Below are positions 3,175 through 40,419 of a DNA stretch of 43,109 nt, in pieces. The DNA is from a virus: IMG/VR virus record IMGVR_UViG_3300005262_000003; one strand, 5' to 3'. A program made the translations under genes and the position numbers. Below the pieces are notes generated by a model. The model had not been told where the DNA came from, did no database searches, and saw nothing but the letters and a program-made list of their open reading frames with translations. Each line of letters begins with the position of its first letter. Positions within the stretch are counted from its first letter, which is position 1.

Positions 3175-4233
3175 TTACGCGGCCTTTGGCTGGGCCACGG
3201 CGCTGATGTGCCGCTGCAGCGCGGCGCAGATCCGCAGGAAGTCCGACTCGCGATACAACTTCGCGGACTTGTCCGTCATCGCGTGCGCGAAGCCCAGGCG
3301 CGCGAGGCCGTCGGCGGTCAGCGTGATCGGCGCCAGGCGCTCGTTGATCTGGCCAAGTCGCAACATGGCTTCGTCGTCCGCTGCCGGTACACGCGCGACA
3401 TCAATGTCCGTCACCGTCGCCGCCATTGCTGGCTGAGCCTCGCGCCGCCGTTCCAGCGCGTCGACCAAGACCTGGTGCACCGGGTGCATCTCGGGCGCGG
3501 CCGCGGCCTGCACGAGCTCGGCGGGCGCCGGCGCGGCGGACACTTCCTGGAAGTCGGGGTCGAACTCGGCGTCGACGGCATCATCTACCGGTGCGCGCAG
3601 CACGCCCTCGAACAACTGCACCATGCTGTCGAACTTCACGAGGCGCGCGGCCATGTCGTCGATGAACGCGTCGTCACGGAAGATGCGCTTCACGAACAGG
3701 TCCTTCCCGACGGCGGCCAAGTCCGGCACGTACATGATGAAGTCGCACCACTTCCGGCCCGTGATCCACATGCCGCCCTGCATCTGGTGGTCGTATTCGC
3801 TCGTGTCACCGGACTGCCACATCGCCAGAATCTTCGTGCTGTCGATCGGCGCTTTGATTTCGATGAGGCCGTCGTCGTCGACCAGACCGTCGGTGCTGTA
3901 GCCGAAGGCGCCGTCGTCGGTCACGCAGATGCCGGCCTCGGTGACGAAAGCTCCAGTGCGGCCCTCGTAGATACGGCGCGCATGCGCCTCCATCTCGTGG
4001 CCGCGCTCGAGCACCCACGCTTTCGGCGGCTCGCCGTGCGGCTGGCCGCTGATGCGCTCGATCGCCAGATCGGCGGCGTAGCGCTCAGCTACCGCCGTCG
4101 GGTCTCCCGAATCACGCGAAGCAGACTTTTTTTGGCAGACGCTGATGGCGTCGGCGAAGCACGAGGCGGTGATCTTGCCGCTTCGCGCGGCGAGCCATTC
4201 GGCGCTGCCCTGCGGGCATTCGATGAACTTCAT
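3175..4233 (-). CDS. YqaJ/lambda-Exo-like recombination exonuclease (PD-(D/E)XK) with C-terminal extension
   Basis: N-terminus MKFIECPQGSAEWLAARSGKITAS, plus GYSTDGLV...GLIEIKAP and MQGGMW motifs typical of YqaJ viral recombinases. ATGA overlap with the upstream recT. Confidence 0.85.
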   Translation of the reverse strand: MKFIECPQGSAEWLAARSGKITASCFADAISVCQKKSASRDSGDPTAVAERYAADLAIERISGQPHGEPPKAWVLERGHEMEAHARRIYEGRTGAFVTEAGICVTDDGAFGYSTDGLVDDDGLIEIKAPIDSTKILAMWQSGDTSEYDHQMQGGMWITGRKWCDFIMYVPDLAAVGKDLFVKRIFRDDAFIDDMAARLVKFDSMVQLFEGVLRAPVDDAVDAEFDPDFQEVSAAPAPAELVQAAAAPEMHPVHQVLVDALERRREAQPAMAATVTDIDVARVPAADDEAMLRLGQINERLAPITLTADGLARLGFAHAMTDKSAKLYRESDFLRICAALQRHISAVAQPKAA

Positions 4234-5234
4234 GGTTGTGCTCCCAGGCTACGTTGGAAATCGGCGTCCTCATCGGACAGCGGCGGCGGCATGTCGGCGG
4301 CTGCCGGCGGCGACGGCTGCGGCGCGCGCGGCGGCTCCATGTCGATCGTGCGCGCGGCGTCGGCGGCATCACGCAGCGCTTGACGGTGGCTGGCGATCGC
4401 GTCCTTGAGCTTCTTGTGGTCCTGCGGCTGGCGCGCCAGCTTGCCGTTGTTCTCGCGCCAGTACTTCAGGGCGTCGGCGTCCGTGCGCGTGGCGATCGCG
4501 TCGGCGATCATCGGCGCGACGTCGATCCAGTCGGCCGGCCGCTCGTTCAGGTCGACCATGCGCTCGCCGTTCTGGCTGAGCTGGTCCATGGCGTTGTCCA
4601 GGCGCTCAGTCTTCGGCCAGAGCTTGTACGCGCGGCGGATGACTGTCTTCTTGATCATCTCGCCCTCGTCGGTTTTCCACGGGCCGCCGCCGTTGCGCTT
4701 CCACGATTCCGAGCGGTCGCGGATGCTGTAGATGTCGTCGATGTCCATGATCGTGGTCAGGTAATCGCCGTTGTGCAGCTTCACGACCACGTACGCGCCA
4801 ACGATCTCGCCGCGGTTCTTCCCGAACGGCTCGAAGTCGTGCACAGGCTGCTTGTCCATGCCCACCTTGCGGAACGCGTCGTTCTCGCGCACCAGCTCGG
4901 CCTGGCCCCACAGGATCGATCCCGAGGCGACAGCGATGTCCAGCAGGCCGATATAGCTGATGTCGAGGCAGATCTTGCCGCCACGCGGCACCAGGTAGGC
5001 CTGCTTGCGCGCCGGGTTCAGGCTGATGCCGATGGCGGCGATGTTGGTCACGGCCGCGATCAGCGACGGCTTGGCGCCCATCGCGACCTTCATCGCGTAG
5101 TCGTTGTTCTGCAGGATCTGGATCGCGAAGCCGCTTTCGCGCTCGAAGCTGATGCTGCGGTCGACGAGGACGCGCGAGAAATCGTCGCGCGCTTCCTGGA
5201 TGGCGCCGGTGATGATGGCGAGGGCGTTACTCAT
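4230..5234 (-). CDS. recT: RecT-family single-strand annealing protein
   Basis: Motifs LNPARKQAYLVPRGGK, ISYIGLLDIA, GAYVVVKL, PWKTDEGEMIKKTVIRRAYKLWP. Paired with the YqaJ exonuclease. Confidence 0.9.
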   Translation of the reverse strand: MSNALAIITGAIQEARDDFSRVLVDRSISFERESGFAIQILQNNDYAMKVAMGAKPSLIAAVTNIAAIGISLNPARKQAYLVPRGGKICLDISYIGLLDIAVASGSILWGQAELVRENDAFRKVGMDKQPVHDFEPFGKNRGEIVGAYVVVKLHNGDYLTTIMDIDDIYSIRDRSESWKRNGGGPWKTDEGEMIKKTVIRRAYKLWPKTERLDNAMDQLSQNGERMVDLNERPADWIDVAPMIADAIATRTDADALKYWRENNGKLARQPQDHKKLKDAIASHRQALRDAADAARTIDMEPPRAPQPSPPAAADMPPPLSDEDADFQRSLGAQP

Positions 5235-5671
5235 TGGGCTTCCTTTCGTTTCAGCTGTTTCGCCAGCTGGTGGGTTTCAACGTGATGTTTCTTGCACAGC
5301 CAGGTCACGGCGAGCGGCAGCGAGTAATCGGCGTGATGTGCTTCGGCTCTCTGGGCGCCGCAGATGAAACAGGGCTGCGGGATCAGCCTCCCCAACTTGA
5401 TGGCGTTGCTGACGATGGTGTTCGCCGCGAACTGCTCGGGGTGCGTCCCTCGACGCTTCAAGTACGTACGGCGTAGAACAGCTTTGCCGGCCGCTGTCTT
5501 GCTGTACGCAGACTTCCTCGCCGCGGTCGCCTCCGGGTTTGCGTTGCGATATGCGGCGACGTCGGCGCGCGTGCATTCCTTGCACTTCCCCAGGTGGCCG
5601 TCAGCCATCCGCTTGTGCCGATAGAACTCGGTCAGCGGCAGCTCGCGGCGGCACTTGAAGCAGGTCTTCAT
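5231..5671 (-). CDS. HNH-type zinc-ribbon nuclease-like protein
   Basis: CFKC...CKEC N-terminal ribbon. C-terminal CFICG...AHHADYSLPLAVTWLCKKHHVETH (HNH-like). ATGA overlap with recT. Confidence 0.7.
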   Translation of the reverse strand: MKTCFKCRRELPLTEFYRHKRMADGHLGKCKECTRADVAAYRNANPEATAARKSAYSKTAAGKAVLRRTYLKRRGTHPEQFAANTIVSNAIKLGRLIPQPCFICGAQRAEAHHADYSLPLAVTWLCKKHHVETHQLAKQLKRKEAQ

Positions 5672-5798: not shown

Positions 5799-6005
5799 TT
5801 ACCAGGTGCTGATTTGCTTGCGGCGCGCCATCAGGCGCACTTCGCGGATTCGTTCGGTGCGCACGAGGCTGACGAGGTCCTCGCGCATCTGGAGCAGGCG
5901 GGCGGCTTCGCCGGCGGACGCGGTCAGCGCGCGGTCGGTCAGCCACAGCGCGGCCGGCTTGATGGCCTTGCGCACCAGGCGGCGCGCGATGCGGGCGGCG
6001 ATCAC
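5799..6005 (-). CDS. Hypothetical small protein, 68 aa
   Basis: GTG at 6005 overlaps the upstream stop (GTGA, 6002-6005). In frame with ORF 5799-6125. Confidence 0.5.
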   Translation of the reverse strand: MIAARIARRLVRKAIKPAALWLTDRALTASAGEAARLLQMREDLVSLVRTERIREVRLMARRKQISTW

Positions 6006-6388
6006 GATTTCACCTCGACCTGGCCTTCGCCTTTGCAGTCCGGGCAGGCCACGTCCTTCTCGACGTGGTAGCCGGCCTCGCACGTGGCGATCATCGTCAC
6101 GCCGACGCCTTCGCAGGTGTCGCACAGGCGGCAGCCCTCGTCGGCCTTCTCCAGGTTCGCGGCGACCGGGCCGCGCTCGCGCACATCGTCAGGCACGTCG
6201 AGGTGCCTGCGGCCGTCGCGCAGGTCGCGGCTCAGCTTTTCGCAGGCGTCGGCTCCGGCCTTGATCGATTGCAGATACCGATCCGCTGCCTCGCGCCCAC
6301 TCCAGTGCGTGGAACGATCCCGCATCCATTCGGCAGCGGCCCTTGCGTCGGCCAGCGCGACGCGGATGTCCGACAGTTCGCGGCTCAC
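6002..6388 (-). CDS. Small protein, 128 aa, with two DnaJ-type CxxCxGxG zinc-finger repeats
   Basis: GTG at 6388 overlaps the upstream stop (GTGA). The C-terminus contains CDTCEGVG and CPDCKGEG. Confidence 0.65.
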   Translation of the reverse strand: MSRELSDIRVALADARAAAEWMRDRSTHWSGREAADRYLQSIKAGADACEKLSRDLRDGRRHLDVPDDVRERGPVAANLEKADEGCRLCDTCEGVGVTMIATCEAGYHVEKDVACPDCKGEGQVEVKS

Positions 6389-6675
6389 TTGGCACGCTCC
6401 GCAAGCATGGCGTCGGCCATCTTGTATGCCTTCGCCGCGATCTCGGGAATATCGCAGCCCCACGTATCGCCATGGGCGCAAATGCCCTGCATCGCCTTCG
6501 CCGCGAAGTAGTCGCGCAGTGTCATGCCCTGCATGGCTTGGCCACGCACCTCGGTGTACACGCGGTCGCGCTCGGCCGGATCCTCGATGCCGCTGATTGC
6601 GCCTACCGCGATAGCGTGCGCCGACTGCCCGTCGCTGGTCGGGAACGCTTGCCCGCCGGTCTTCTTCAGGTCCAT
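6385..6675 (-). CDS. Hypothetical protein, 96 aa
   Basis: ORF track. GAGGAG Shine-Dalgarno before the ATG at 6675. Confidence 0.75.
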   Translation of the reverse strand: MDLKKTGGQAFPTSDGQSAHAIAVGAISGIEDPAERDRVYTEVRGQAMQGMTLRDYFAAKAMQGICAHGDTWGCDIPEIAAKAYKMADAMLAERAK

Positions 6676-6715
6676 CTTCTGCTCCTCGTTCTGGCCGGCG
6701 CCGCCGGCGGTTGGT

Positions 6716-6910
6716 TTATTGGTGTGGTGCCGTCGCTGCTTCGTTATCGCGGGACAGGGTCAGTTCCATGTCGATGGCGCGCAGGGCGATGTCCAAGCCC
6801 GCGTTGATGCCGTCGACGTAAAGTCCCGGGTAGCGGTGCTTGACGTCGCGAGCGGCCTGCACGATCTTCTTGAGGCCTTCCAGGCGCATGGAAGTGGTCT
6901 GCGTGCTCAC
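6716..6910 (-). CDS. Hypothetical small protein, 64 aa
   Basis: GTG at 6910 overlaps the upstream stop (GTGA 6907-6910). An alternative ATG lies at 6889. Confidence 0.5.
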   Translation of the reverse strand: MSTQTTSMRLEGLKKIVQAARDVKHRYPGLYVDGINAGLDIALRAIDMELTLSRDNEAATAPHQ

Positions 6911-7255: not shown

Positions 7256-7414
7256 TCAGGCCTCCGCAGCGGCCAGGAAGGTTTGCGCTTCAACTTCGGT
7301 GCGCAGGTGCGGCGTGCTCATGCGCTGGTAGAAGCCGCTCGACCAGGTGCGGGTGATGACGTAGCCGTTGTACGACTTCTTGATCTGCCAGGCGCCGGGG
7401 GTGTGCTTGCTCAT
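7256..7414 (-). CDS. Mini-ORF, 52 aa (MSKHTPGAWQIKKSYNGYVITRTW...)
   Basis: Hand translation. GGGAGAG Shine-Dalgarno before the ATG at 7414. G/C-rich third positions. Not in the ORF track (<60 aa). Confidence 0.55.
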   Translation of the reverse strand: MSKHTPGAWQIKKSYNGYVITRTWSSGFYQRMSTPHLRTEVEAQTFLAAAEA

Positions 7415-7429
7415 CGTGCTCTCCCGGAC

Positions 7430-7591
7430 TCAAAAGTTCCAGGCTTTAGCGCCGGCAGCCTTCGCCGCTGCCTTGGCCTCAGCCTTGCTGTCGAACAGCT
7501 GCTCGGACACGATGCCCTCGGAAATCGACGGGCCGGTACTGATGATCAGGCGGGCCTTTTTGCCAGCCGCGCGGTAGATGTGTGCGTACAT
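7430..7591 (-). CDS. Mini-ORF, 53 aa, first gene of the leftward early operon (MYAHIYRAAGKKARLIISTGPS...AKAWNF)
   Basis: Hand translation. GGAGA Shine-Dalgarno before the ATG at 7591. Lies directly downstream of the PL-like promoter. Confidence 0.55.
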   Translation of the reverse strand: MYAHIYRAAGKKARLIISTGPSISEGIVSEQLFDSKAEAKAAAKAAGAKAWNF

Positions 7592-7636
7592 TCGGGGTCT
7601 CCATCTGCCCTGCTGGGCTCGGTTGCGATGGAGACA

Positions 7637-7677
7637 TTATTAGCTATGCTTTTTTCTTAGTCAAGAGCATTGCTTAT
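7637..7677 (-). promoter_or_regulatory. PL-like early-left promoter with OL operators
   Basis: Minus strand reads TTGACT (7664-7659), 16-nt spacer, TAATAA (7642-7637). The 15-mer AAGAGCATTGCTTAT (7663-7677) is the exact reverse complement of 9569-9583. A related AGCATAGCT lies in the spacer. Confidence 0.7.
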
Positions 7678-7719
7678 ATTTTTACGCATGGACGCGCCCC
7701 GGGTCCGGACGCGGGGCGC

Positions 7720-7745
7720 AAAAAAGCCCGCACTTGGCGGGCTTT
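7720..7745 (-). terminator. Intrinsic terminator closing the cI-orf91-lipoprotein unit
   Basis: Minus strand reads aaagcccgc-caagt-gcgggcttt followed by tttttt (plus-strand A-run 7720-7725). It lies 18 nt downstream of the lipoprotein stop. Confidence 0.7.
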
Positions 7746-7762
7746 GAAGGAATCAAAAGCGG

Positions 7763-8416
7763 TTACTGAACTTGGATGCTTGACGGGCAACTACCGACGA
7801 ACGTCCGCCAGAATGTCCTGCCAGCATAGCTGTACTCACAGTTCCAGCCGGACTGGTAGGTAACCGTTTGCACCTGCGTTTGTTTTCCTGTCCAGTATGC
7901 AGTCGCGGCCACCTGCAGGGGAGTCGGCGCTACTGAAGCAACCGGAGGAATCGTTGACACTCTGGGAGTAATCGGAGTGTAAGTCAACGGTTGAGGCTGA
8001 GACGCCTGGTTTGCCTGCATTAACTGAAGCGCAAGCGCCGTTCGCGCACGTTGATCAGCTTGCTGTTGCGCTGCAATTTGTTGAGCAATCGCTGTAATTC
8101 TTGCTCGTTTGTCCCGCTGCCTGAACTCAAACTCCTCTTTCGTTATAGATGCGTTTTCGTATTGCTGCGCATCCCACTGCATTTGGTTAATGACCTGTAT
8201 GATCTGCGGGGAAGTTCCGATAGCCAGATGTCTTTGATATAAACCGCTGTAATACACCGACCATTTAACTGCCCCATTTTCAGCCAGAGGCTTATTTGTT
8301 TCTATATAGCTTCGAAGCTCAACTGCTTTTTGGTCCGACTGGGACTGCTGCAACTGATTAGCGCAACCCGCGACGAGTAAACCGAGCGCCGCGATAAAAT
8401 ATTTTCGGATACTCAT
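7763..8416 (-). CDS. Lipoprotein, 217 aa, low G+C, unknown function (candidate superinfection-exclusion or defence factor)
   Basis: Internal ATG 8416 gives MSIRKYFIAALGLLVAGC (lipobox LVAGC). Followed by a Q-rich helical middle, a Pro-rich linker, and a C-terminal two-Cys domain. Sampled 60-nt windows are about 40-48% G+C. Confidence 0.8.
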   Translation of the reverse strand: MSIRKYFIAALGLLVAGCANQLQQSQSDQKAVELRSYIETNKPLAENGAVKWSVYYSGLYQRHLAIGTSPQIIQVINQMQWDAQQYENASITKEEFEFRQRDKRARITAIAQQIAAQQQADQRARTALALQLMQANQASQPQPLTYTPITPRVSTIPPVASVAPTPLQVAATAYWTGKQTQVQTVTYQSGWNCEYSYAGRTFWRTFVGSCPSSIQVQ

Positions 8417-8439
8417 ATTGTCTAAGAAATCAGTCGTGT

Positions 8440-8715
8440 TTAAAAGGGAAGTTCCTGCTCCGCGAATACAGCTTCGTTCCATTCGATATCACCAAGCGAT
8501 AGCAATTCGAGCAGATAAGGCATAGCATCAAATTCTGCCGCTGCACGTGCGTTATTCCAAGCTGTGTCATCCCGCGCCACCAGCATGACCGGCAACTGGA
8601 ACTTCATCTGCAGCTCTGCCACCAACGGGCCAGCAACATCCCAAGCCAGCTGGCGCCGCTCTACCAAGACTACCGCCATGCGCACGCCGCGCAGGCGCTG
8701 AATGGAATGCAACAT
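8440..8715 (-). CDS. Hypothetical 91-aa protein translationally coupled to cI
   Basis: ATG 8715-8713 overlaps the cI stop 8717-8715 (TGATG). Product MLHSIQRLRGVRMAVVLVERRQLAWDVAGPLVAELQMKF... I recognise no family. Confidence 0.65.
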   Translation of the reverse strand: MLHSIQRLRGVRMAVVLVERRQLAWDVAGPLVAELQMKFQLPVMLVARDDTAWNNARAAAEFDAMPYLLELLSLGDIEWNEAVFAEQELPF

Positions 8716-9491
8716 CAAAATACTTCCGTCTCTCTTTTCACTACTCGACCAATAATTTGTGACGTATCTCCCGCGAAGGATTGCCGGTAATAACGTCGCT
8801 GATCCACATTGTCCGAAACTAGCCACCATCTTCCTGCATCACGCGTCAATCGTTTGATTGCCGGCTCTCCTTCGTAATTCACTGCGTAAACTGCACCAGA
8901 AACGGGCTTTGTGTCTGCCGTGTTAATAATGACCAGGTCGCCATCGTAAAACGTCGGCTCCATGCTTTCGCCGCGCACTCTGATTGCAATTAACTTGTCC
9001 CGACTATAGCCATGGCGCTCGATCCATTCGGTTGGTACTGTCGTTGACGACCCATCATACGGCTCGGGCTCAACCTCGAAGCCGCTAAGACCAGCCGTCA
9101 GCCGCAGCCGCACCTTTGGAATAATGGTGAGCCGCGGATCATCGCCGTCTGCTCCCTCGACACGCATGTAGCTGCCTGGCTTCAACCCCGCAAGGGAACC
9201 CTGAGTCGGCGACTCCACCTTCTCGGCCACCTGATCGACGACCTGCATCAGCCGCGGACTGATGAAGCGCGGATCCGCTTCGATGACGTTGCAAATGGCC
9301 AACAGGGCCTGAAGGTTCAGCGGAATGATCGCGCGCATGTACTGGCTGACCGCAGCTTGCGTCCCAAGGCCAGCCTCGGCGGCAAGCCAAGTCTGTGTCG
9401 CTCCATCGTGCGCGGCGCGATAGCTCTCCCAGGCCGCTTTCAGCCGATCAGCCTCGCCTCTTTCCTCAGCAGTAAGTTCCCGTCGTTTCAT
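8715..9491 (-). CDS. cI: CI-type prophage repressor (N-terminal HTH plus C-terminal S24 LexA-like autopeptidase)
   Basis: The C-terminus has GESMEPTFYDGDLVII (catalytic Ser) and AIKRL (Lys). A candidate Ala-Gly cleavage site lies in LTAGLSG. Divergent from cro. Confidence 0.9.
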   Translation of the reverse strand: MKRRELTAEERGEADRLKAAWESYRAAHDGATQTWLAAEAGLGTQAAVSQYMRAIIPLNLQALLAICNVIEADPRFISPRLMQVVDQVAEKVESPTQGSLAGLKPGSYMRVEGADGDDPRLTIIPKVRLRLTAGLSGFEVEPEPYDGSSTTVPTEWIERHGYSRDKLIAIRVRGESMEPTFYDGDLVIINTADTKPVSGAVYAVNYEGEPAIKRLTRDAGRWWLVSDNVDQRRYYRQSFAGDTSQIIGRVVKRETEVF

Positions 9492-9532
9492 TCTGACATT
9501 TTATTAGTGCTACTTTTTTTCCGTGCGACATC

Positions 9533-9584
9533 TTGAAAAGCATTGCTGTTAATGTAGAATGCAGAAAAATAAGCAATGCTCTTA
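9533..9584 (+). promoter_or_regulatory. PR-like promoter with OR operators
   Basis: TTGAAA (9533-9538), 16-nt spacer, TAGAAT (9555-9560). Palindromic core AGCATTGCT sits in the spacer (9539-9547). ATAAGCAATGCTCTT lies at 9569-9583. Confidence 0.75.
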
Positions 9585-9600
9585 AATTTTAGGAACGCAC

Positions 9601-9855
9601 ATGACCCTTGACGAACACCTGAAGGAAGTCGGCCAAAGCCAAAGCGAGTTTGGCGCCGAGCTCCATCCTCCTGCCTCGCAAGCCCTGGTCAGCCAGTGGG
9701 TTCGCGGTATCACTCGCGTCACCCTTGATTACGCGCTGCAGATCGAGCGCGCTACCGAAGGCCGCGTTACGCCGCAGGACTGCGCTGACATGTTCCGTGA
9801 CCCGAACGCACGACGAGCTGCTTCACCACAGCAGCTGTCGAGCCAGTCGCAGTAA
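9601..9855 (+). CDS. cro: Cro/YdaS-like HTH regulator
   Basis: 84 aa. SQSEFGAELHPPASQALVSQWVRG HTH. AGGAA Shine-Dalgarno. First gene rightward of the operator region. Confidence 0.8.
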   Translation: MTLDEHLKEVGQSQSEFGAELHPPASQALVSQWVRGITRVTLDYALQIERATEGRVTPQDCADMFRDPNARRAASPQQLSSQSQ

Positions 9856-12738: not shown

Positions 12739-13266
12739 ATGATGATCTTGGAAAGCATGAAGCACTCGCCGGTGCGCAACTACGGCGGCATCCCCGGCCT
12801 GACGAGCTGGCTCATCGGCGAGCCGAGCGCGCGCGGCCTAGTCCGCCTGCTGGAGTGCTCGCGCACGCACTTCGAACCCATCGTGCCGCACTCGCACCGC
12901 TTCGACTTCGAATGCCGGGTGCTGCGCGGGAAGGTGCGGAACATCGTCTGGGAGCCGAGCGCAGCCGGCGACGATTACGAGACGACGGAAATCACGTACG
13001 GCGGCGCGCCTGGATCGTATGGCGAACACCGCCCGACCGCGCGCTCGACGTGGGCGTTCCGCACGGAGGTCTATCGCGAAGACCAGCGCTACGCGATGGA
13101 CGCGCACGAGGTGCATTCGATCTTCTTCGAGCGCGATACTGCCGTGCTGTTCTTCGAAGGACCGCAGACCGTCAACACGTCGATCTTCCTGCAGCCGGTC
13201 GTCGACGGCCAGGTCGTGCCGACGTTCAAGGTCGAGCCGTGGATGTTCCAGCGAGGTGGCGCATGA
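12739..13266 (+). CDS. Hypothetical protein, 175 aa, with possible cupin-like HxH...E...H signature
   Basis: GGGAGAA Shine-Dalgarno. PHSHRFDFECRVLRGKV and AHEVHSIFF motifs. The fold call is tentative. Confidence 0.65.
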   Translation: MMILESMKHSPVRNYGGIPGLTSWLIGEPSARGLVRLLECSRTHFEPIVPHSHRFDFECRVLRGKVRNIVWEPSAAGDDYETTEITYGGAPGSYGEHRPTARSTWAFRTEVYREDQRYAMDAHEVHSIFFERDTAVLFFEGPQTVNTSIFLQPVVDGQVVPTFKVEPWMFQRGGA

Positions 13267-13745
13267 ACATCCTCGCCATCGACATCGGCACCCAAACCGG
13301 CTGGGCCCGCAGCTCGCGCGCCGGCACCGTCACCAGCGGCAGCGAATCGTTCGCGCCGCGCCGCATGGAAGCGGCCGGCCAGCGCTGGCTGAAGTTCCGC
13401 GCCTTCCTCAACGACCAGCGGATCGCCGGCGGCGAGATCCACGCGATCTACTACGAGGACGTGAAGCAGCACGCCGGCACGCTCGCGGCGCACGTCTACG
13501 GCGGCTTCCTCGCGTGCCTGGAGATGTGGTGCGCGGCGAACAACGTGCCGCTCAAGCCAGTGGGCGTGGGCGTCGTGAAGAAGCACTGGACCGGCAAGGG
13601 CAACGCCGACAAGGCCGTCATGTGCGAGACGGCGCGCGCACGTGGCTTCCGCCCGAAGGACAGCAACGAGGCCGACGCGCTGGCGATCCTGTCGCTGGCC
13701 CAGCACCTGGAAGGCATCACGGCACCGGTGGCGGAGGCGGCATGA
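13263..13745 (+). CDS. RuvC-like Holliday-junction resolvase
   Basis: ATGA-coupled internal start. MNILAIDIGTQTGWA (catalytic Asp), YYEDV, and DSNEADALAIL motifs. Confidence 0.85.
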   Translation: MNILAIDIGTQTGWARSSRAGTVTSGSESFAPRRMEAAGQRWLKFRAFLNDQRIAGGEIHAIYYEDVKQHAGTLAAHVYGGFLACLEMWCAANNVPLKPVGVGVVKKHWTGKGNADKAVMCETARARGFRPKDSNEADALAILSLAQHLEGITAPVAEAA

Positions 13746-13918
13746 CGCCCGAGCAAACCACCCTCGCATGCGCCGCGTGCTTCGCCGTCGGCTTCATCGG
13801 CGGGTTCGCCGGCGGCTTCCGCGTCGCGGCCATGATCATGACCGGCGTGCGCACGGTGCGCGGCGCCCGCCTGCGCGTTGTGGCGTCGGACGGCCAACTG
13901 CGAGAGGACGTGGCCTGA
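13742..13918 (+). CDS. Small membrane protein, 58 aa
   Basis: ATGA-coupled. Hydrophobic segment LACAACFAVGFIGGFAGGF. Confidence 0.5.
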   Translation: MTPEQTTLACAACFAVGFIGGFAGGFRVAAMIMTGVRTVRGARLRVVASDGQLREDVA

Positions 13919-14655
13919 TGCGATTTTTCACCGGCACCCACCAGCCGAGCGACGCGCAGCACCATGACGCGAACTTCGTCAGCGTCAACCGCCTGCGCGC
14001 GCGCCGGTCCGGCTTCGCAGTTGGCGACTGGATCATGGATTCCGGCGCGTTCACGCAGATCCTGCGCCACGGCGGCTACACCGAGGGCGTCGAGGTGTAC
14101 GCCGCCGAGATCAAACGCTGGGCGAATAACGGAAACCTGCTGGCGGCCGTCGCCCAGGACTACATGTGCGAGGCTCACATGCTGGCGATCACCGGCAAGA
14201 CCATCGAGGAACACCAGCGCCTGACCATCGAGCGCTATGACGCGCTGCAGGCCTGCGACGTCGGCGGCGTGTACATCATGCCTGTGCTGCAGGGATACGC
14301 GCCCGACGATTACGTGCGCCACATCGCGATGTATGGCGAACGCCTCGCGCACGGTATGTGGGTCGGCGTCGGCTCTGTATGCAAGCGGAACGGTGACCCG
14401 CGCGCAATCGAACGCGTGCTGTTCGCCATCAAGGAAGCTCGGCCAGACCTGCTCCTGCACGGCTTTGGCGTGAAGACGACGGCGCTGTCGTCGTCGCTGG
14501 TCACCGAGCTGCTGCACACGGCTGACTCGATGGCGTGGAGCTTCGCCGCGCGACGCGAGGGGCGAAACCCCAACGACTGGCGCGAGGCCCGCGCGTGGAC
14601 CGAACGGATCGCACGCCGGCCGATGCAATTCGGGCTGTTCGGAGGTGCACAATGA
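13918..14655 (+). CDS. dpdA: DpdA-like DNA transglycosylase (tRNA-guanine transglycosylase superfamily, minimal 245-aa form)
   Basis: MDSGAFTQ (compare TGT DSGGFQ), VGVGSVCKR, LHGFGVKT and ADSMAWSFAARREG (compare archaeal TGT FDSASY..A). No Zn or tRNA-binding domains. TGATG-coupled start. Confidence 0.7.
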   Translation: MRFFTGTHQPSDAQHHDANFVSVNRLRARRSGFAVGDWIMDSGAFTQILRHGGYTEGVEVYAAEIKRWANNGNLLAAVAQDYMCEAHMLAITGKTIEEHQRLTIERYDALQACDVGGVYIMPVLQGYAPDDYVRHIAMYGERLAHGMWVGVGSVCKRNGDPRAIERVLFAIKEARPDLLLHGFGVKTTALSSSLVTELLHTADSMAWSFAARREGRNPNDWREARAWTERIARRPMQFGLFGGAQ

Positions 14656-39318: not shown

Positions 39319-40419
39319 TTACGCGGTCGCCTTGGCCGTCTTCTTCTTCCGCCTGTCGTACACCTGCCGCACCATGCGATCCGTGCTGTGTCCGGTAGCG
39401 TTCGTGATGTCTTTATCCCCCTCTTCTACCCGGTCCGTGACAGCCGCCGGCCGCATGTCCTTCAACGTGAACCGCGCGAACTCGATCCCTTCTTTTTCCG
39501 CCTTCTTCCGCGCGTGCTCCATCAACCGGCGCAGGTTCGTGTTCCAGCCGCTGGTCGTGTAGGGTTGCCCCTCACTGTTGCCGAAAACATACATGCTGGT
39601 CGTGCGCTGCAGGGACAGTGCCTCGCTCATGACCGCGCGCAGCTCGTCCGACCACTCGATCACCTTGAACTTTTGCACACTTCCCTTCTTCCGCTTGCCG
39701 ACCGGCATTTCGACCCCCTGCTCCGTGATCGCCTGGCGCGTGATTTTCCGCATCTCGTCCGGACGGCTCACCGTCAGGTAGGCCGCGCGCAAGCACAGCG
39801 CCGCCACCACGTACATCCCGCCGCGCTCCCGCGCCACGCGCACGACCAGGTCGAGCTCGGTCGACGTCACATAGCGGGTGTCCGGCGTCGTCTTGTTGTA
39901 CTTGATGTCGCGGCAGGGGTTCGTCTCCAGCACACCCTTACGGCGGCCGAACTCCAGCACAGCCGACAGCAGCGCGATTTCCTTGTTCGCCTTCGCCGGC
40001 GCGCCTTCAGCGGCCCGGCCGTCCAGATACTTATAGATGTGCACCGGCTTGATGACCGCCGGCTTCACCTTGCCGAATGTCTTCAGCAGGCGCTTTGCCT
40101 CGTTGTGCTCGTTCTCGTCCAGGGTGCTGTCGGCCTTGCGTTCCTCGCTGTCGCGCGGCAAGGCGCGCTGCCACGCGAAGTAGCGGCGGAACAGCGCATC
40201 GGTCTCGCCGGTCTCCACCTGGACGCCGTTCAGCTCGTTGGCGCGCTCGATCGCCTCGGTGCGGATCCGCGCGCACGCTTCCTTGTCGCTGGTGGCGGCC
40301 GTCAAGCGGAACGCCCACTTCCCGTCCGGCAGCTTGTAGCCGTAGCTCACCTTGAACTTACCGAGGCGCTCGTACAGGCGGAACGGCATGCCGTCCGGTG
40401 ATTTTCTTCTTCCGATCAT
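39319..40419 (-). CDS. int: Tyrosine integrase
   Basis: 366 aa. C-terminal ATGHSTDRMVRQVYDRR (H-x-x-R ... Y). Adjacent to attP and xis. Confidence 0.9.
   Translation of the reverse strand: MIGRRKSPDGMPFRLYERLGKFKVSYGYKLPDGKWAFRLTAATSDKEACARIRTEAIERANELNGVQVETGETDALFRRYFAWQRALPRDSEERKADSTLDENEHNEAKRLLKTFGKVKPAVIKPVHIYKYLDGRAAEGAPAKANKEIALLSAVLEFGRRKGVLETNPCRDIKYNKTTPDTRYVTSTELDLVVRVARERGGMYVVAALCLRAAYLTVSRPDEMRKITRQAITEQGVEMPVGKRKKGSVQKFKVIEWSDELRAVMSEALSLQRTTSMYVFGNSEGQPYTTSGWNTNLRRLMEHARKKAEKEGIEFARFTLKDMRPAAVTDRVEEGDKDITNATGHSTDRMVRQVYDRRKKKTAKATA

What the first reader, a model, noticed from the sequence alone, without database searches (positions are those of the whole stretch)
7720..8717. 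Foreign low-G+C two-gene cassette welded to the repressor gene in the lambda rex position
Two co-oriented ORFs of foreign composition lie between the CI gene and the PL/OL region, where lambda keeps rexAB. My hand counts of 60-nt windows give about 40-48% G+C at 8041-8280 and 45-50% in the 3' half of cI. The 5' half of cI gives 60-70%, and 13261-13320 gives about 68%. The compositional junction therefore falls inside cI itself.

The 91-aa ORF starts at an ATG that overlaps the cI stop (TGATG at 8717-8713). It should therefore be made whenever repressor is made, that is, in lysogens. The second ORF is a 217-aa lipoprotein with lipobox LVAGC, a Q-rich helical region, a Pro-rich linker and a two-Cys C-terminal domain. 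A minus-strand intrinsic terminator (7720-7745) closes the unit just before PL.

I recognise no family for either protein. The architecture predicts a prophage-expressed envelope-associated superinfection-exclusion or anti-phage module. The soluble-partner-plus-lipoprotein pairing is not one I know as a described system.
Basis: partly seen in the sequence, partly recalled or inferred. Interest (0 to 1): 0.85.

Follow-up and report, generated by a model that had tools for sequence, protein, structure and literature searches.

The report
Repressor-linked small protein plus swappable lipoprotein
Two uncharacterised genes sit behind the repressor gene of a Massilia-type lambda-like phage, but they are independent add-ons rather than a two-gene system: a small protein that always travels with the repressor and ends in a tail like that of bacterial SSB, and a lipoprotein that is one of many interchangeable envelope genes in that position.

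Summary
cI (8715-9491, minus strand) is followed by a 91-aa ORF whose ATG overlaps the cI stop, then a 217-aa lipoprotein gene, a hairpin/U6 terminator and PL/OL. G+C falls inside cI.

The "foreign two-gene cassette" reading does not hold.
- In 38 distinct related phage loci the ORF91 family lies directly after an S24 repressor; the one exception has a Bro-N gene in between. dN/dS is 0.03-0.10.
- DNA homology with relatives runs through cro, cI and ORF91, stops at the ORF91 stop codon (8440) and resumes at the terminator or PL. Only 7745-8439, the lipoprotein gene, is the exchangeable unit.
- That slot holds at least ten unrelated lipoprotein, membrane or secreted proteins.
- This lipoprotein family also occurs behind repressors without ORF91 (6 of 12 contexts), including a Massilia varians prophage.

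Neither protein matches any Pfam, PHROG, PADLOC, NCBIfam, PDB or BFVD entry.

ORF91 ends in a conserved ...EPE[LIVM]PF tail resembling the SSB C-terminal tip. Where the gene is duplicated in tandem, only the second copy keeps the tail.

Functions are inferred: a periplasmic, Llp/Cor-like exclusion or conversion lipoprotein, and a repressor-coupled cytoplasmic adaptor or decoy.

The parts
8715..9491 (-). cI-type repressor gene, 258 aa, with an N-terminal DNA-binding part and a C-terminal S24 self-cleaving domain
   Evidence: Pfam Peptidase_S24 E 1.7e-19 and PHROG 4 transcriptional repressor E 2e-34. The GESMEP and IKRL motifs are visible in the translation.
9182..9190 (-). Mosaic joint in the cI inter-domain linker. 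The immunity-specific N-domain lies upstream and the shared C-domain downstream.
   Evidence: blastn homology to L013 and L040 begins at 9182 and 9188. In 28 of 42 loci, protein similarity to this cI starts at residues 82-108. G+C falls from 62% to 53.5% across this point.
8440..8715 (-). ORF91, a small cytoplasmic protein translationally coupled to cI (TGATG overlap) and part of the conserved cI unit
   Evidence: 78 homologues. It lies directly after an S24 repressor in every distinct locus except the L006/L007 pair, where a Bro-N gene intervenes. dN/dS is 0.03-0.10. The AF2 model has pLDDT 83 with a bb-a-bb-a topology. No family or fold match was found.
8443..8484 (-). ORF91 C-terminal tail, residues 78-91 (EWNEAVFAEQELPF), acidic, of low model confidence, ending in L-P-F-COOH like the SSB C-terminal tip
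   Evidence: pLDDT is 55-59 for the last 20 residues. The tail is conserved in distant members. One tail per locus holds in 37 of 38 loci. None of 3,595 background ORFs end in [DE][LIVMF]PF.
7745..8439 (-). The exchangeable cassette (moron slot) between the ORF91 stop codon and the terminator
   Evidence: blastn to L008, L009, L017 and L020 stops at 8440 (8439 for L020) and resumes at 7744/7743 or 7683/7681. In relatives the slot holds at least ten unrelated envelope proteins.
7763..8416 (-). Lipoprotein gene, 217 aa: signal peptide and lipobox LVAGC (Cys18), a helical domain (residues 22-138), a disordered Pro-rich linker (about 139-170) and a four-strand C-terminal domain
   Evidence: 50 homologues. 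C18 and A19 are invariant. The AF2 model has pLDDT 83. No family or fold match was found.
7766..7906 (-). Lipoprotein C-terminal domain (residues 171-217), the conserved core of the family, with invariant Cys193 and Cys210
   Evidence: 25 invariant columns, nearly all in this domain. It is shared by the long, short (about 165 aa) and 122-aa mini forms. The model shows four beta strands at pLDDT 81-92.
7720..7745 (-). Intrinsic terminator of the repressor operon, a 9-bp G+C-rich stem with a 5-nt loop and a U run
   Evidence: Inverted repeat 7723-7731/7737-7745, 100% complementary. The RNA fold gives -35.5 kcal/mol, z -2.9, together with the next hairpin. It is conserved in L008 and L017 as backbone.
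7694..7719 (-). Second G+C-rich hairpin directly after the terminator
   Evidence: Inverted repeat of 13-nt arms, 92% complementary. It is folded in the MFE structure.
7636..7674 (-). PL-like promoter (TTGACT-17-AATAAT) with an OL operator 9-mer (7666-7674) abutting its -35 hexamer
   Evidence: Promoter scan, 10 of 12 matches. Exact AGCATTGCT at 7666.
9533..9614 (.). OR region: PR-like promoter (+, 9533-9560), PRM candidate (-, 9614-9586) and two operator 9-mers (9539-9547, 9572-9580)
9601..9855 (+). cro-like gene, divergent from cI
   Evidence: PHROG 35 E 2e-9; weak YdaS/P22_Cro/HTH_3 hits.

Best explanation
Region 7720-9491 is the lysogenic (PRM-type) operon of a lambda-like temperate phage of Massilia-type Burkholderiales. 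It has three layers.

1. Shown: cI and ORF91 form a conserved unit. ORF91 is translated by coupling to cI and belongs to the backbone together with the cI C-terminal (S24) domain. The cI N-terminal domain, the operators and cro are exchanged as the immunity module.

2. Shown: the stretch between the ORF91 stop codon and a shared terminator is a hot slot. In different phages it holds unrelated lipoprotein, membrane or secreted protein genes. The 217-aa lipoprotein is this phage's occupant, and the same family also sits behind repressors that have no ORF91.

3. Inferred functions:
- The lipoprotein is lipid-anchored, and by the E. coli +2 rule goes to the outer membrane. It dangles a small, probably disulfide-bonded, four-strand domain into the periplasm on a flexible Pro-rich tether. 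This domain most likely binds a conserved host envelope protein, masking a receptor or blocking DNA entry for competing phages, as T5 Llp or phi80 Cor do with FhuA.
- ORF91 is a cytoplasmic protein, probably dimeric, with a basic N-terminal half and an acidic flexible tail ending in ...EPELPF-COOH. This tail most likely docks into the pocket that normally receives the SSB C-terminal tip (DDDIPF) on a genome-maintenance protein. ORF91 would then act as an adaptor or decoy in lysogens, either tuning RecA-dependent induction of its partner repressor or disabling SSB-tip-dependent enzymes of incoming phages, such as RecT-type annealases.
For: Architecture:
- TGATG overlap, no promoter before the lipoprotein gene and a single terminator.
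- ORF91 homologues lie immediately after an S24 repressor in all 38 distinct loci except one with a Bro-N insert. This includes the most distant member, P0152, which sits in a different phage backbone.
- The homology break falls exactly at the ORF91 stop codon.
- Slot contents are 25 lipobox proteins, 10 TM/signal-peptide proteins and 3 empty, out of 38 loci.
- The lipoprotein family occurs behind repressors without ORF91 in L043, L044, L049, L052, L056 and L057, the last being Massilia varians.

ORF91:
- dN/dS is 0.03-0.10.
- The family is narrow: 24 clusters among 1.84 billion representatives.
- The tandem 85-aa ORF is a paralogue (hhalign 97.7%, E 2e-12).
- 24 of 25 single copies end in the tail. 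In the 13 tandem loci the first copy never has it and the second always does.
- The motif is absent from 3,595 other ORFs.
- The tail has low pLDDT.
- The SSB tip consensus DDDIPF is given in PMC5872125, and RecT systems are constrained by the SSB tip according to PMC13490951.

Lipoprotein:
- Lipobox Cys and +2 Ala are invariant. There are 25 invariant residues, including the two Cys, in the 47-aa C-domain. The N-domain is variable or dispensable.
- T5 Llp is a small four-strand lipoprotein whose disulfide is needed to bind FhuA from the periplasmic side (bioRxiv 10.64898/2026.03.26.714494).
Against: - There are no expression or phenotype data. Every functional statement is inference from anatomy.
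- ORF91 has no OB fold and no detectable similarity to SSB or to any solved or predicted viral structure.
- The tail carries Pro at -4 and Glu rather than Asp, so it resembles the SSB tip but is not identical to it. No partner has been identified.
- Repressors with a related C-domain work without ORF91 (L043, L044, L057), so ORF91 is not needed for repression itself.
- The lipoprotein has no sequence or fold similarity to Llp, Cor or Ltp.
- Prophage lipoproteins can have non-phage roles; lambda Bor is an example.
- Outer-membrane sorting is extrapolated from E. coli rules.
Confidence: 0.6

Rival explanations
1. One reading: ORF91 and the lipoprotein are the two parts of one foreign, co-functional superinfection-exclusion or anti-phage system, a soluble partner plus an envelope lipoprotein, acquired as a unit.
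For: They are adjacent, co-oriented and 23 nt apart, in one operon with one terminator, and both are below the genome's G+C. An envelope protein follows ORF91 or its paralogue in 35 of 38 loci.
Against: The envelope proteins belong to at least ten unrelated families. Only 6 of 38 ORF91 loci carry this lipoprotein family, and 6 of 12 lipoprotein contexts lack ORF91. Homology with relatives breaks exactly between the two genes. ORF91 is far more conserved (70-93% identity) than the lipoprotein (42-74%).
Confidence: 0.07
2. ORF91 is a direct co-factor of the repressor. It binds the S24 C-terminal domain of cI and modulates RecA-stimulated self-cleavage or cooperative DNA binding. This would be analogous to phage GIL01 gp7 acting on LexA (own knowledge). 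The C-terminal tail would serve that interaction rather than mimic SSB.
For: ORF91 is strictly adjacent and translationally coupled to S24 repressors across the whole family, including the most divergent member. It travels with the cI C-domain while the N-domain is swapped. It is absent from the two loci whose repressor lacks an S24 domain.
Against: Repressors with a 54-62% identical C-domain occur without ORF91 (L043, L044). A Bro-N gene can separate the two genes. In L059 the cI C-domain is 52% identical while the ORF91 homologue is only just detectable (E 2.7e-4), so the two do not diverge in step. Adjacency alone may reflect linkage. No complex prediction could be run.
Confidence: 0.25
3. 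The lipoprotein is a lysogenic-conversion factor that benefits the host for reasons unrelated to phages, such as envelope stress, predation or serum-type resistance, or adhesion. Lambda Bor is the model (own knowledge). It would not be a superinfection-exclusion protein.
For: It is expressed from the prophage operon. Its C-domain is highly conserved, which suggests a conserved host target. The slot holds many different envelope proteins, including DUF4136- and DUF4156-type lipoproteins also known from chromosomes.
Against: Every occurrence of the family that was found is behind a phage repressor, and none is in a chromosomal non-prophage context. Known lysogeny-module lipoproteins such as Ltp are exclusion proteins (PMC3952083).
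Confidence: 0.25
4. ORF91 is a Rex-like abortive-infection or toxin-antitoxin component that kills or arrests the lysogen on superinfection.
For: It occupies the rex position and is expressed in lysogens. Tandem paralogues exist in 13 loci.
Against: It has no membrane partner of constant family and no similarity to RexA/RexB or to any PADLOC defence model. The single PADLOC hit, at 14.6 bits to a type I MTase, is noise. The tandem genes are paralogues of one another rather than a toxin-antitoxin pair. Very strong purifying selection and low diversity are unlike arms-race genes.
Confidence: 0.1

Closest known systems
Lambda rexA-rexB (accessory genes in the cI operon)
   Same: Same map position, between cI and PL/OL. 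Transcribed with the repressor in lysogens and closed by a terminator.
   Different: No sequence or fold similarity. rexAB is a fixed cytoplasmic-plus-membrane pair. Here the two genes are independently distributed, and the second position is a slot for many alternative genes.
T5 Llp and phi80/N15 Cor (small outer-membrane lipoproteins that inactivate FhuA from the periplasmic side)
   Same: Lipobox lipoprotein whose active part is a small four-strand domain with two conserved Cys. A 122-aa mini form consists of anchor, linker and this domain only (bioRxiv 10.64898/2026.03.26.714494).
   Different: No sequence or structural match, and the PDB library searched covers entries up to April 2026. 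There is an extra helical domain and a long tether. The gene lies in the repressor operon. The target is unknown.
Ltp of Streptococcus thermophilus phage TP-J34
   Same: A lipoprotein encoded in the lysogeny module and expressed from the prophage, acting in superinfection exclusion (PMC3952083).
   Different: It is a Gram-positive, surface-exposed protein with helical repeat domains. No homology was found.
C-terminal tip of bacterial SSB (DDDIPF), the docking peptide for SSB-interacting proteins
   Same: ORF91 and its paralogue end in a flexible acidic tail with [DE]-[LIVM]-P-F at the free C-terminus. The tail is conserved even in members that are otherwise barely alignable (PMC5872125).
   Different: The body of ORF91 is not an OB fold and shows no SSB similarity. 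The tail has Glu and Pro where SSB has Asp. Binding to any SSB partner is untested.
Phage GIL01 gp7, a small protein that binds the S24-type repressor LexA (own knowledge)
   Same: A small phage protein functionally tied to an S24 self-cleaving repressor.
   Different: gp7 acts on host LexA and is not encoded behind a phage cI. No similarity was tested or known. For ORF91 the tie is positional only.
Morons of lambdoid phages, such as lambda bor and lom
   Same: A discrete insert of lower G+C between backbone genes. It encodes an envelope protein and is expressed in the lysogen, with exact boundaries against relatives.
   Different: It has no promoter of its own. It relies on read-through from the repressor operon and uses the backbone terminator.

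Membership tests
Lambda RexA/RexB exclusion system | Sequence homology to RexA or RexB | tested here: not met
   No Pfam, PHROG, PADLOC or NCBIfam family for either protein. tblastn against 50,697 phage records found nothing.
Lambda RexA/RexB exclusion system | Located between cI and PL and co-transcribed with cI | tested here: met
   Gene order, overlap and terminator. Transcription itself was not measured.
Lambda RexA/RexB exclusion system | A fixed two-component pair that always co-occurs | tested here: not met
   6 of 38 ORF91 loci have this lipoprotein family, and 6 of 12 lipoprotein contexts lack ORF91.
SSB / SSB-tip-bearing proteins | OB-fold ssDNA-binding domain | tested here: not met
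   The AF2 model is bb-a-bb-a. No SSB Pfam hit. No SSB among the Foldseek or HMM matches.
SSB / SSB-tip-bearing proteins | Disordered acidic C-terminus ending in [DE]-[IL]-P-F-COOH | tested here: met
   The window tail is AEQELPF and the family consensus is EPE[LIVM]PF, with pLDDT 55-59. It resembles DDDIPF but is not identical (PMC5872125).
SSB / SSB-tip-bearing proteins | The tail binds the SSB-tip pocket of partner proteins | not testable with these tools
   Needs peptide-binding assays or complex prediction.
Llp/Cor-type receptor-blocking lipoproteins | Signal peptide with lipobox Cys | tested here: met
   LVAGC, with Cys18 and Ala19 invariant in 33 sequences.
Llp/Cor-type receptor-blocking lipoproteins | Small beta domain with a functionally required disulfide | tested here: inconclusive
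   The four-strand C-domain has invariant Cys193 and Cys210. The disulfide bond itself is inferred, not shown.
Llp/Cor-type receptor-blocking lipoproteins | Sequence or fold homology to Llp or Cor | tested here: not met
   Best Foldseek PDB match E 0.36. HMM search against PDB sequences found nothing relevant. No tblastn hit in phages.
Llp/Cor-type receptor-blocking lipoproteins | Binds an outer-membrane receptor and blocks phage infection | not testable with these tools
   Needs plating, adsorption and pull-down experiments.
Ltp-type exclusion lipoproteins | Homology to the Ltp repeat domain | tested here: not met
   No Pfam or PHROG hit.
DinI-type RecA modulators | Sequence similarity to DinI | tested here: not met
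   hhalign of the ORF91 profile against E. coli DinI gave probability 0.3%.
Moron (autonomous insert in a phage backbone) | Discrete insertion with sharp homology breaks against related genomes and deviant composition | tested here: met
   Breaks at 8440 and 7744/7683. G+C is 50.6% against 64.4% for the window.
Moron (autonomous insert in a phage backbone) | Own promoter and own terminator | tested here: not met
   There is no promoter-like site upstream of the ATG. The only nearby match overlaps the start codon. The terminator is shared backbone in L008 and L017.

The most novel reading that the evidence does not exclude
ORF91 and its tandem paralogue define a new class of repressor-coupled phage proteins that carry a mimic of the SSB C-terminal tip. 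Made in fixed ratio with cI in every lysogen, they would plug into the host's SSB interaction hub through exactly one tail per unit. They would either set the threshold of RecA-dependent prophage induction or starve incoming phages' SSB-tip-dependent recombination and replication enzymes. That would be a cytoplasmic exclusion or induction-control principle not described before.
Probability: 0.25. Interest if true: 0.8.

Novelty: new variant of a known kind. Interest (0 to 1): 0.5.

Why it matters
Accessory genes in the repressor operon are what a prophage actually expresses in its host, so they shape phage-phage competition and host fitness.

Three points go beyond routine annotation:
- A small protein family is tied to S24 repressors by stop-start overlap across a whole phage lineage. 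It is under very strong purifying selection and has a free C-terminal motif like the SSB tip, kept once per locus. This gives a concrete, cheap hypothesis to test with a peptide-binding assay or a Pro-Phe deletion.
- One defined slot, between the ORF91 stop codon and the terminator, collects at least ten unrelated lipoprotein or membrane genes. It is a ready-made catalogue of candidate envelope-acting exclusion or conversion factors for Massilia-type soil bacteria.
- The G+C step inside cI is explained by domain-level mosaicism, not by a gene fusion.

If the functions turn out to be ordinary, the region is still a clean example of modular prophage evolution.

Tried and rejected
- Family searches of both proteins in Pfam, PHROGs, PADLOC and NCBIfam found nothing. 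The only item, a 14.6-bit PADLOC hit to a type I methyltransferase, is noise.
- megablast and tblastn against 50,697 phage records gave no match for the region or for either protein. Only cI has distant relatives, at most 35% identity, in Burkholderia, Pseudomonas and Ralstonia phages.
- AF2 models were searched with Foldseek against PDB (both proteins) and BFVD (ORF91). No match had E below 0.05 or TM above 0.44. The ribosomal eS7/eS28 and DHH-phosphoesterase hits are chance-level partial overlaps.
- Profile HMM searches against PDB sequences found nothing.
- DinI-like RecA modulator: rejected at sequence level.
- MazE/AbrB swapped-hairpin antitoxin idea: suggested by the bb-a-bb order and an acidic Trp-containing tail. 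It has no support from Foldseek, and helix 1 is much longer, so it was dropped.
- Beta-clamp-binding motif (QLxLF) and FtsZ C-terminal peptide as alternative readings of the tail: the spacing does not fit, and Gln is not conserved.
- Scan of 185,579 representative genomes: no ORF91 homologue. One lipoprotein homologue was found, in Massilia varians.
- Rfam and tRNA scans of the window found nothing.
- The automatic terminator scan reported none in 7400-9750. The hairpin was confirmed by repeat finding and folding instead.
- Literature searches for phage proteins that mimic the SSB tail, or for this gene arrangement, found no description.
Full report
**1. What is in the sequence**

On the minus strand the window carries the following features.
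- cI: a 258-aa repressor gene at 8715-9491. Its C-terminal half is a Peptidase_S24 domain (E 1.7e-19), and it hits PHROG 4 "transcriptional repressor" (E 2e-34).
- ORF91: a 91-aa ORF at 8440-8715. Its ATG shares bases with the cI stop codon (TGATG, 8717-8713).
- Lipoprotein gene: after 23 nt, a 217-aa ORF at 7763-8416 starting MSIRKYFIAALGLLVAGC.
- Terminator: a 9-bp G+C-rich hairpin followed by U residues at 7745-7720, then a second G+C-rich hairpin at 7719-7694.
- PL: a TTGACT-17-AATAAT promoter at 7664-7636.

The 9-mer AGCAWTGCT occurs exactly three times in 43 kb. One copy abuts the PL -35 hexamer (7666) and two flank the divergent PR/PRM region (9539, 9572) in front of a cro-like gene at 9601-9855.

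Further left in the PL operon lie RecT (4230-5234) and a YqaJ exonuclease (3175-4233). To the right lie a DUF1376 replication-type protein, DpdA, the large terminase and an integrase. This is a lambda-like temperate phage genome. The automatic terminator scan missed the hairpin because it absorbs the first three U into the stem.

**2. Composition**

| Region | G+C | GC3 |
|---|---|---|
| Whole window | 64.4% | not computed |
| recT | not computed | 0.91 |
| yqaJ | not computed | 0.87 |
| cI N-terminal part | 62.1% | 0.71 |
| cI C-terminal part | 53.5% | 0.53 |
| ORF91 | 55.4% | 0.61 |
| Lipoprotein gene | 50.6% (first half 48.0%) | 0.51 |

All values are. ORF91 is intermediate rather than clearly foreign. 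In relatives the whole cI-ORF91-slot stretch is likewise lower in G+C than its flanks.

**3. Both ORFs are real but unassigned**

Neither protein hits Pfam, PHROGs, PADLOC or NCBIfam, and neither has a tblastn match in 50,697 phage records.

In the metagenome-scale protein collection:
- The lipoprotein has 50 homologues. Full-length relatives are 42-74% identical, and shorter forms also exist.
- ORF91 has 78 homologues, mostly 70-93% identical.
- A profile search of 1.84 billion cluster representatives found only 24 clusters for ORF91, so the family is narrow.
- ORF91 dN/dS against eight relatives is 0.03-0.10 wherever dS was not saturated.

The only named source is an uncultured Massilia sp.. 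The only hit among 185,579 representative genomes is a prophage of Massilia varians, found with the lipoprotein. ORF91 itself found none there.

**4. Context of ORF91**

I collected 59 loci. In all 42 loci first retrieved with ORF91, the gene lies directly downstream of a cI homologue. The junction is almost always TGATG or TAATG.

After removing duplicates there are 38 distinct loci. The only exception to direct abutment is L006/L007, where a 335-aa Bro-N protein sits between cI and the ORF91 homologue.

The most distant detectable member, P0152 (E 2.7e-4), also lies directly behind an HTH+S24 repressor. That phage has a different replication module. One 1-kb contig shows a homologue behind a KilA-N protein.

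In 28 of 42 loci, similarity to this cI starts only at residues 82-108. The S24 domain is shared at 45-85% identity while the DNA-binding domain differs.

At DNA level, homology to L013 and L040 starts at 9182-9188, which is in the inter-domain linker. The compositional step inside cI therefore lies close to the well-known mosaic joint between the immunity-specific N-domain and the common C-domain. It is not a weld to a foreign cassette.

**5. The cassette boundary**

blastn of the window against its closest relatives (L008, L009, L017, L020) gives one continuous match from the cro side through cI and ORF91. It ends at 8440 (8439 for L020), which is the last base of the ORF91 stop codon. The match resumes at 7744/7743 (the terminator hairpin) or 7683/7681 (PL).

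L008 has cI 91% and ORF91 93% identical to the window, yet it carries a 101-aa membrane protein where the window has the lipoprotein. Only 7745-8439 is the exchangeable unit. ORF91 belongs to the backbone.

**6. The slot**

Across the 38 distinct loci, the first gene after ORF91 or its paralogue is:
- a lipobox protein in 25 loci (24 by the script, plus L019 by inspection);
- a protein with an N-terminal hydrophobic or signal segment in 10 loci;
- absent in 3 loci.

By inspection these proteins fall into at least ten unrelated families. Two give weak DUF4136 and DUF4156 hits, and most have no Pfam match.

The window's lipoprotein family occupies the slot in 6 of the 38 loci. It also occurs directly behind repressors with no ORF91 in six other contexts:
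- L043;
- the L044 group (L044, L045, L053, L054);
- L049;
- L052 and L056, which lie behind short HTH repressors without an S24 domain;
- L057 in Massilia varians.

Every occurrence of the lipoprotein family that I found is in a repressor-proximal position of a prophage or phage contig.

**7. The lipoprotein**

The alignment shows an invariant lipobox Cys and +2 Ala. The N-terminal region is variable, with long, short and absent forms. The C-terminal domain of about 47 aa is extremely conserved (ATAYWTGKQxQVQTVTYQxGWNCEYxYAGxTFWRTFVGSCPSSVQVQ) and has two invariant Cys. A 122-aa form consists of only the anchor, a low-complexity linker and this domain.

The AF2 model has pLDDT 83:
- a helical domain (residues 22-138, pLDDT up to 98);
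- a disordered Pro-rich stretch (about 139-170);
- four beta strands (171-216).

Foldseek against PDB found nothing (best E 0.36), and a profile search of PDB sequences also found nothing.

The design is a lipid anchor, a flexible tether and a small Cys-containing beta domain. That is what T5 Llp looks like. Llp is a small outer-membrane lipoprotein with four strands, and its disulfide is required to bind FhuA from the periplasmic side (bioRxiv 10.64898/2026.03.26.714494). Lysogeny-module lipoproteins of the Ltp type are exclusion proteins (PMC3952083). I infer a periplasm-facing binder of a conserved host envelope protein. Exclusion of competing phages is the most likely role. A non-phage conversion role is the main rival.

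**8. ORF91**

The AF2 model has pLDDT 83 and pTM 0.72. It shows two beta hairpins and two helices (bb-a-bb-a). The last 20 residues have low confidence. No fold match was found in PDB or BFVD (best E 0.05-0.08, TM at most 0.44).

The N-terminal half is basic and the C-terminal half acidic (direct count from the sequence).

The family ends in a conserved W-x-E-...-E-P-E-[LIVM]-P-F at the free C-terminus. This is kept even in members that are otherwise barely alignable, such as ...EADIPF in P0152.

In 13 distinct loci a second 85-aa ORF follows. It is a paralogue (hhalign probability 97.7%, E 2e-12). The tails then follow a strict rule:
- 24 of 25 single-copy genes end in the tail. The exception, in L021, is 86 aa long and ends differently.
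- In tandem loci the first copy never has the tail (0 of 13) and the second always does (13 of 13).

Among 3,641 ORFs of at least 60 aa in all frames of all loci and the window, the 46 that end in [DE][LIVMF]PF are all members of this family.

The tail resembles the SSB C-terminal tip DDDIPF. That tip is the docking peptide for many genome-maintenance proteins (PMC5872125), and it is used by RecT-type recombination systems (PMC13490951; see also PMC6393309 for Red-beta).

I therefore propose that ORF91 acts in lysogens as an adaptor or decoy that presents an SSB-like tip. This is inference. The body is not an OB fold, the tail is similar rather than identical, and no partner is known.

The main rival is a direct cI co-factor. 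It is suggested by the strict linkage to S24 repressors. It is weakened because related repressors occur without ORF91, and because ORF91 and the cI C-domain diverge at different rates.

DinI similarity was tested and rejected.

**9. Verdict**

- Observation: confirmed.
- Interpretation: partly supported. The position, the expression logic and the unassigned status of both proteins hold. The "foreign two-gene system" does not.
- What is there: a conserved cI-ORF91 unit, a hot-swappable envelope-gene slot and a shared terminator.
- Novelty: a new variant of a known kind, namely repressor-operon accessory genes and morons.
- Most novel possibility: the ORF91 family with its SSB-tip-like tail.
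- Limits: no wet-lab data exist for any of this. All relatives come from uncultured Massilia-type phage contigs apart from the one Massilia varians prophage.

Noticed in passing
L025, L027, L029, L031-L036, L038, L040-L042 (for example L025:5282-5539): A tandem 85-aa paralogue of ORF91 follows the first copy. The first copy has lost the ...PF tail and the second keeps it, which suggests a heterodimer with a single tail.
   Followed up: yes
window 6676-6715 (-), with flanks 6650-6730: A 40-nt intergenic element in the PL operon, CAACCGCCGGCGGCGCCGGCCAGAACGAGGAGCAG, is invariant across six otherwise diverged phages, while the genes downstream of it differ. It contains a GCCGGC palindrome and a Shine-Dalgarno sequence. 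It may be a mosaic joint or a regulatory (nut-like) hairpin.
   Followed up: partly
window 13642-14655 (+): A DpdA homologue (Pfam PF23859, E 1.6e-42), the transglycosylase of 7-deazaguanine DNA-modification systems. This suggests the phage modifies its DNA.
   Followed up: no
window 7694-7719: A second G+C-rich palindrome, GCGCCCCGGGTCC/GGACGCGGGGCGC, lies directly after the operon terminator and before PL. Its role is unknown.
   Followed up: no
L006:4990-5997 and L058:3-692: A 335-aa Bro-N protein is inserted between cI and the ORF91 homologue in L006/L007. A KilA-N protein precedes a distant ORF91 homologue on a 1-kb contig (L058). Both domain types are common in phage anti-repressor-like proteins.
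   Followed up: partly
L056:3908-4276 and L052:3965-4645: The lipoprotein family also occurs behind short HTH repressors that lack an S24 domain. One is a 122-aa mini form with only lipobox, linker and the conserved C-domain.
   Followed up: partly
window 5231-5671 (-) and 6002-6481 (-): Two Cys-rich PL-operon ORFs. One is a 146-aa protein with CxxC pairs and an HH-containing C-terminus that looks HNH-like. The other is a 159-aa protein with a weak DnaJ CXXCXGXG zinc-finger hit (E 7e-5).
   Followed up: no
whole window: No tRNA genes and no Rfam family at gathering threshold. The integrase is at 39319-40419.
   Followed up: yes
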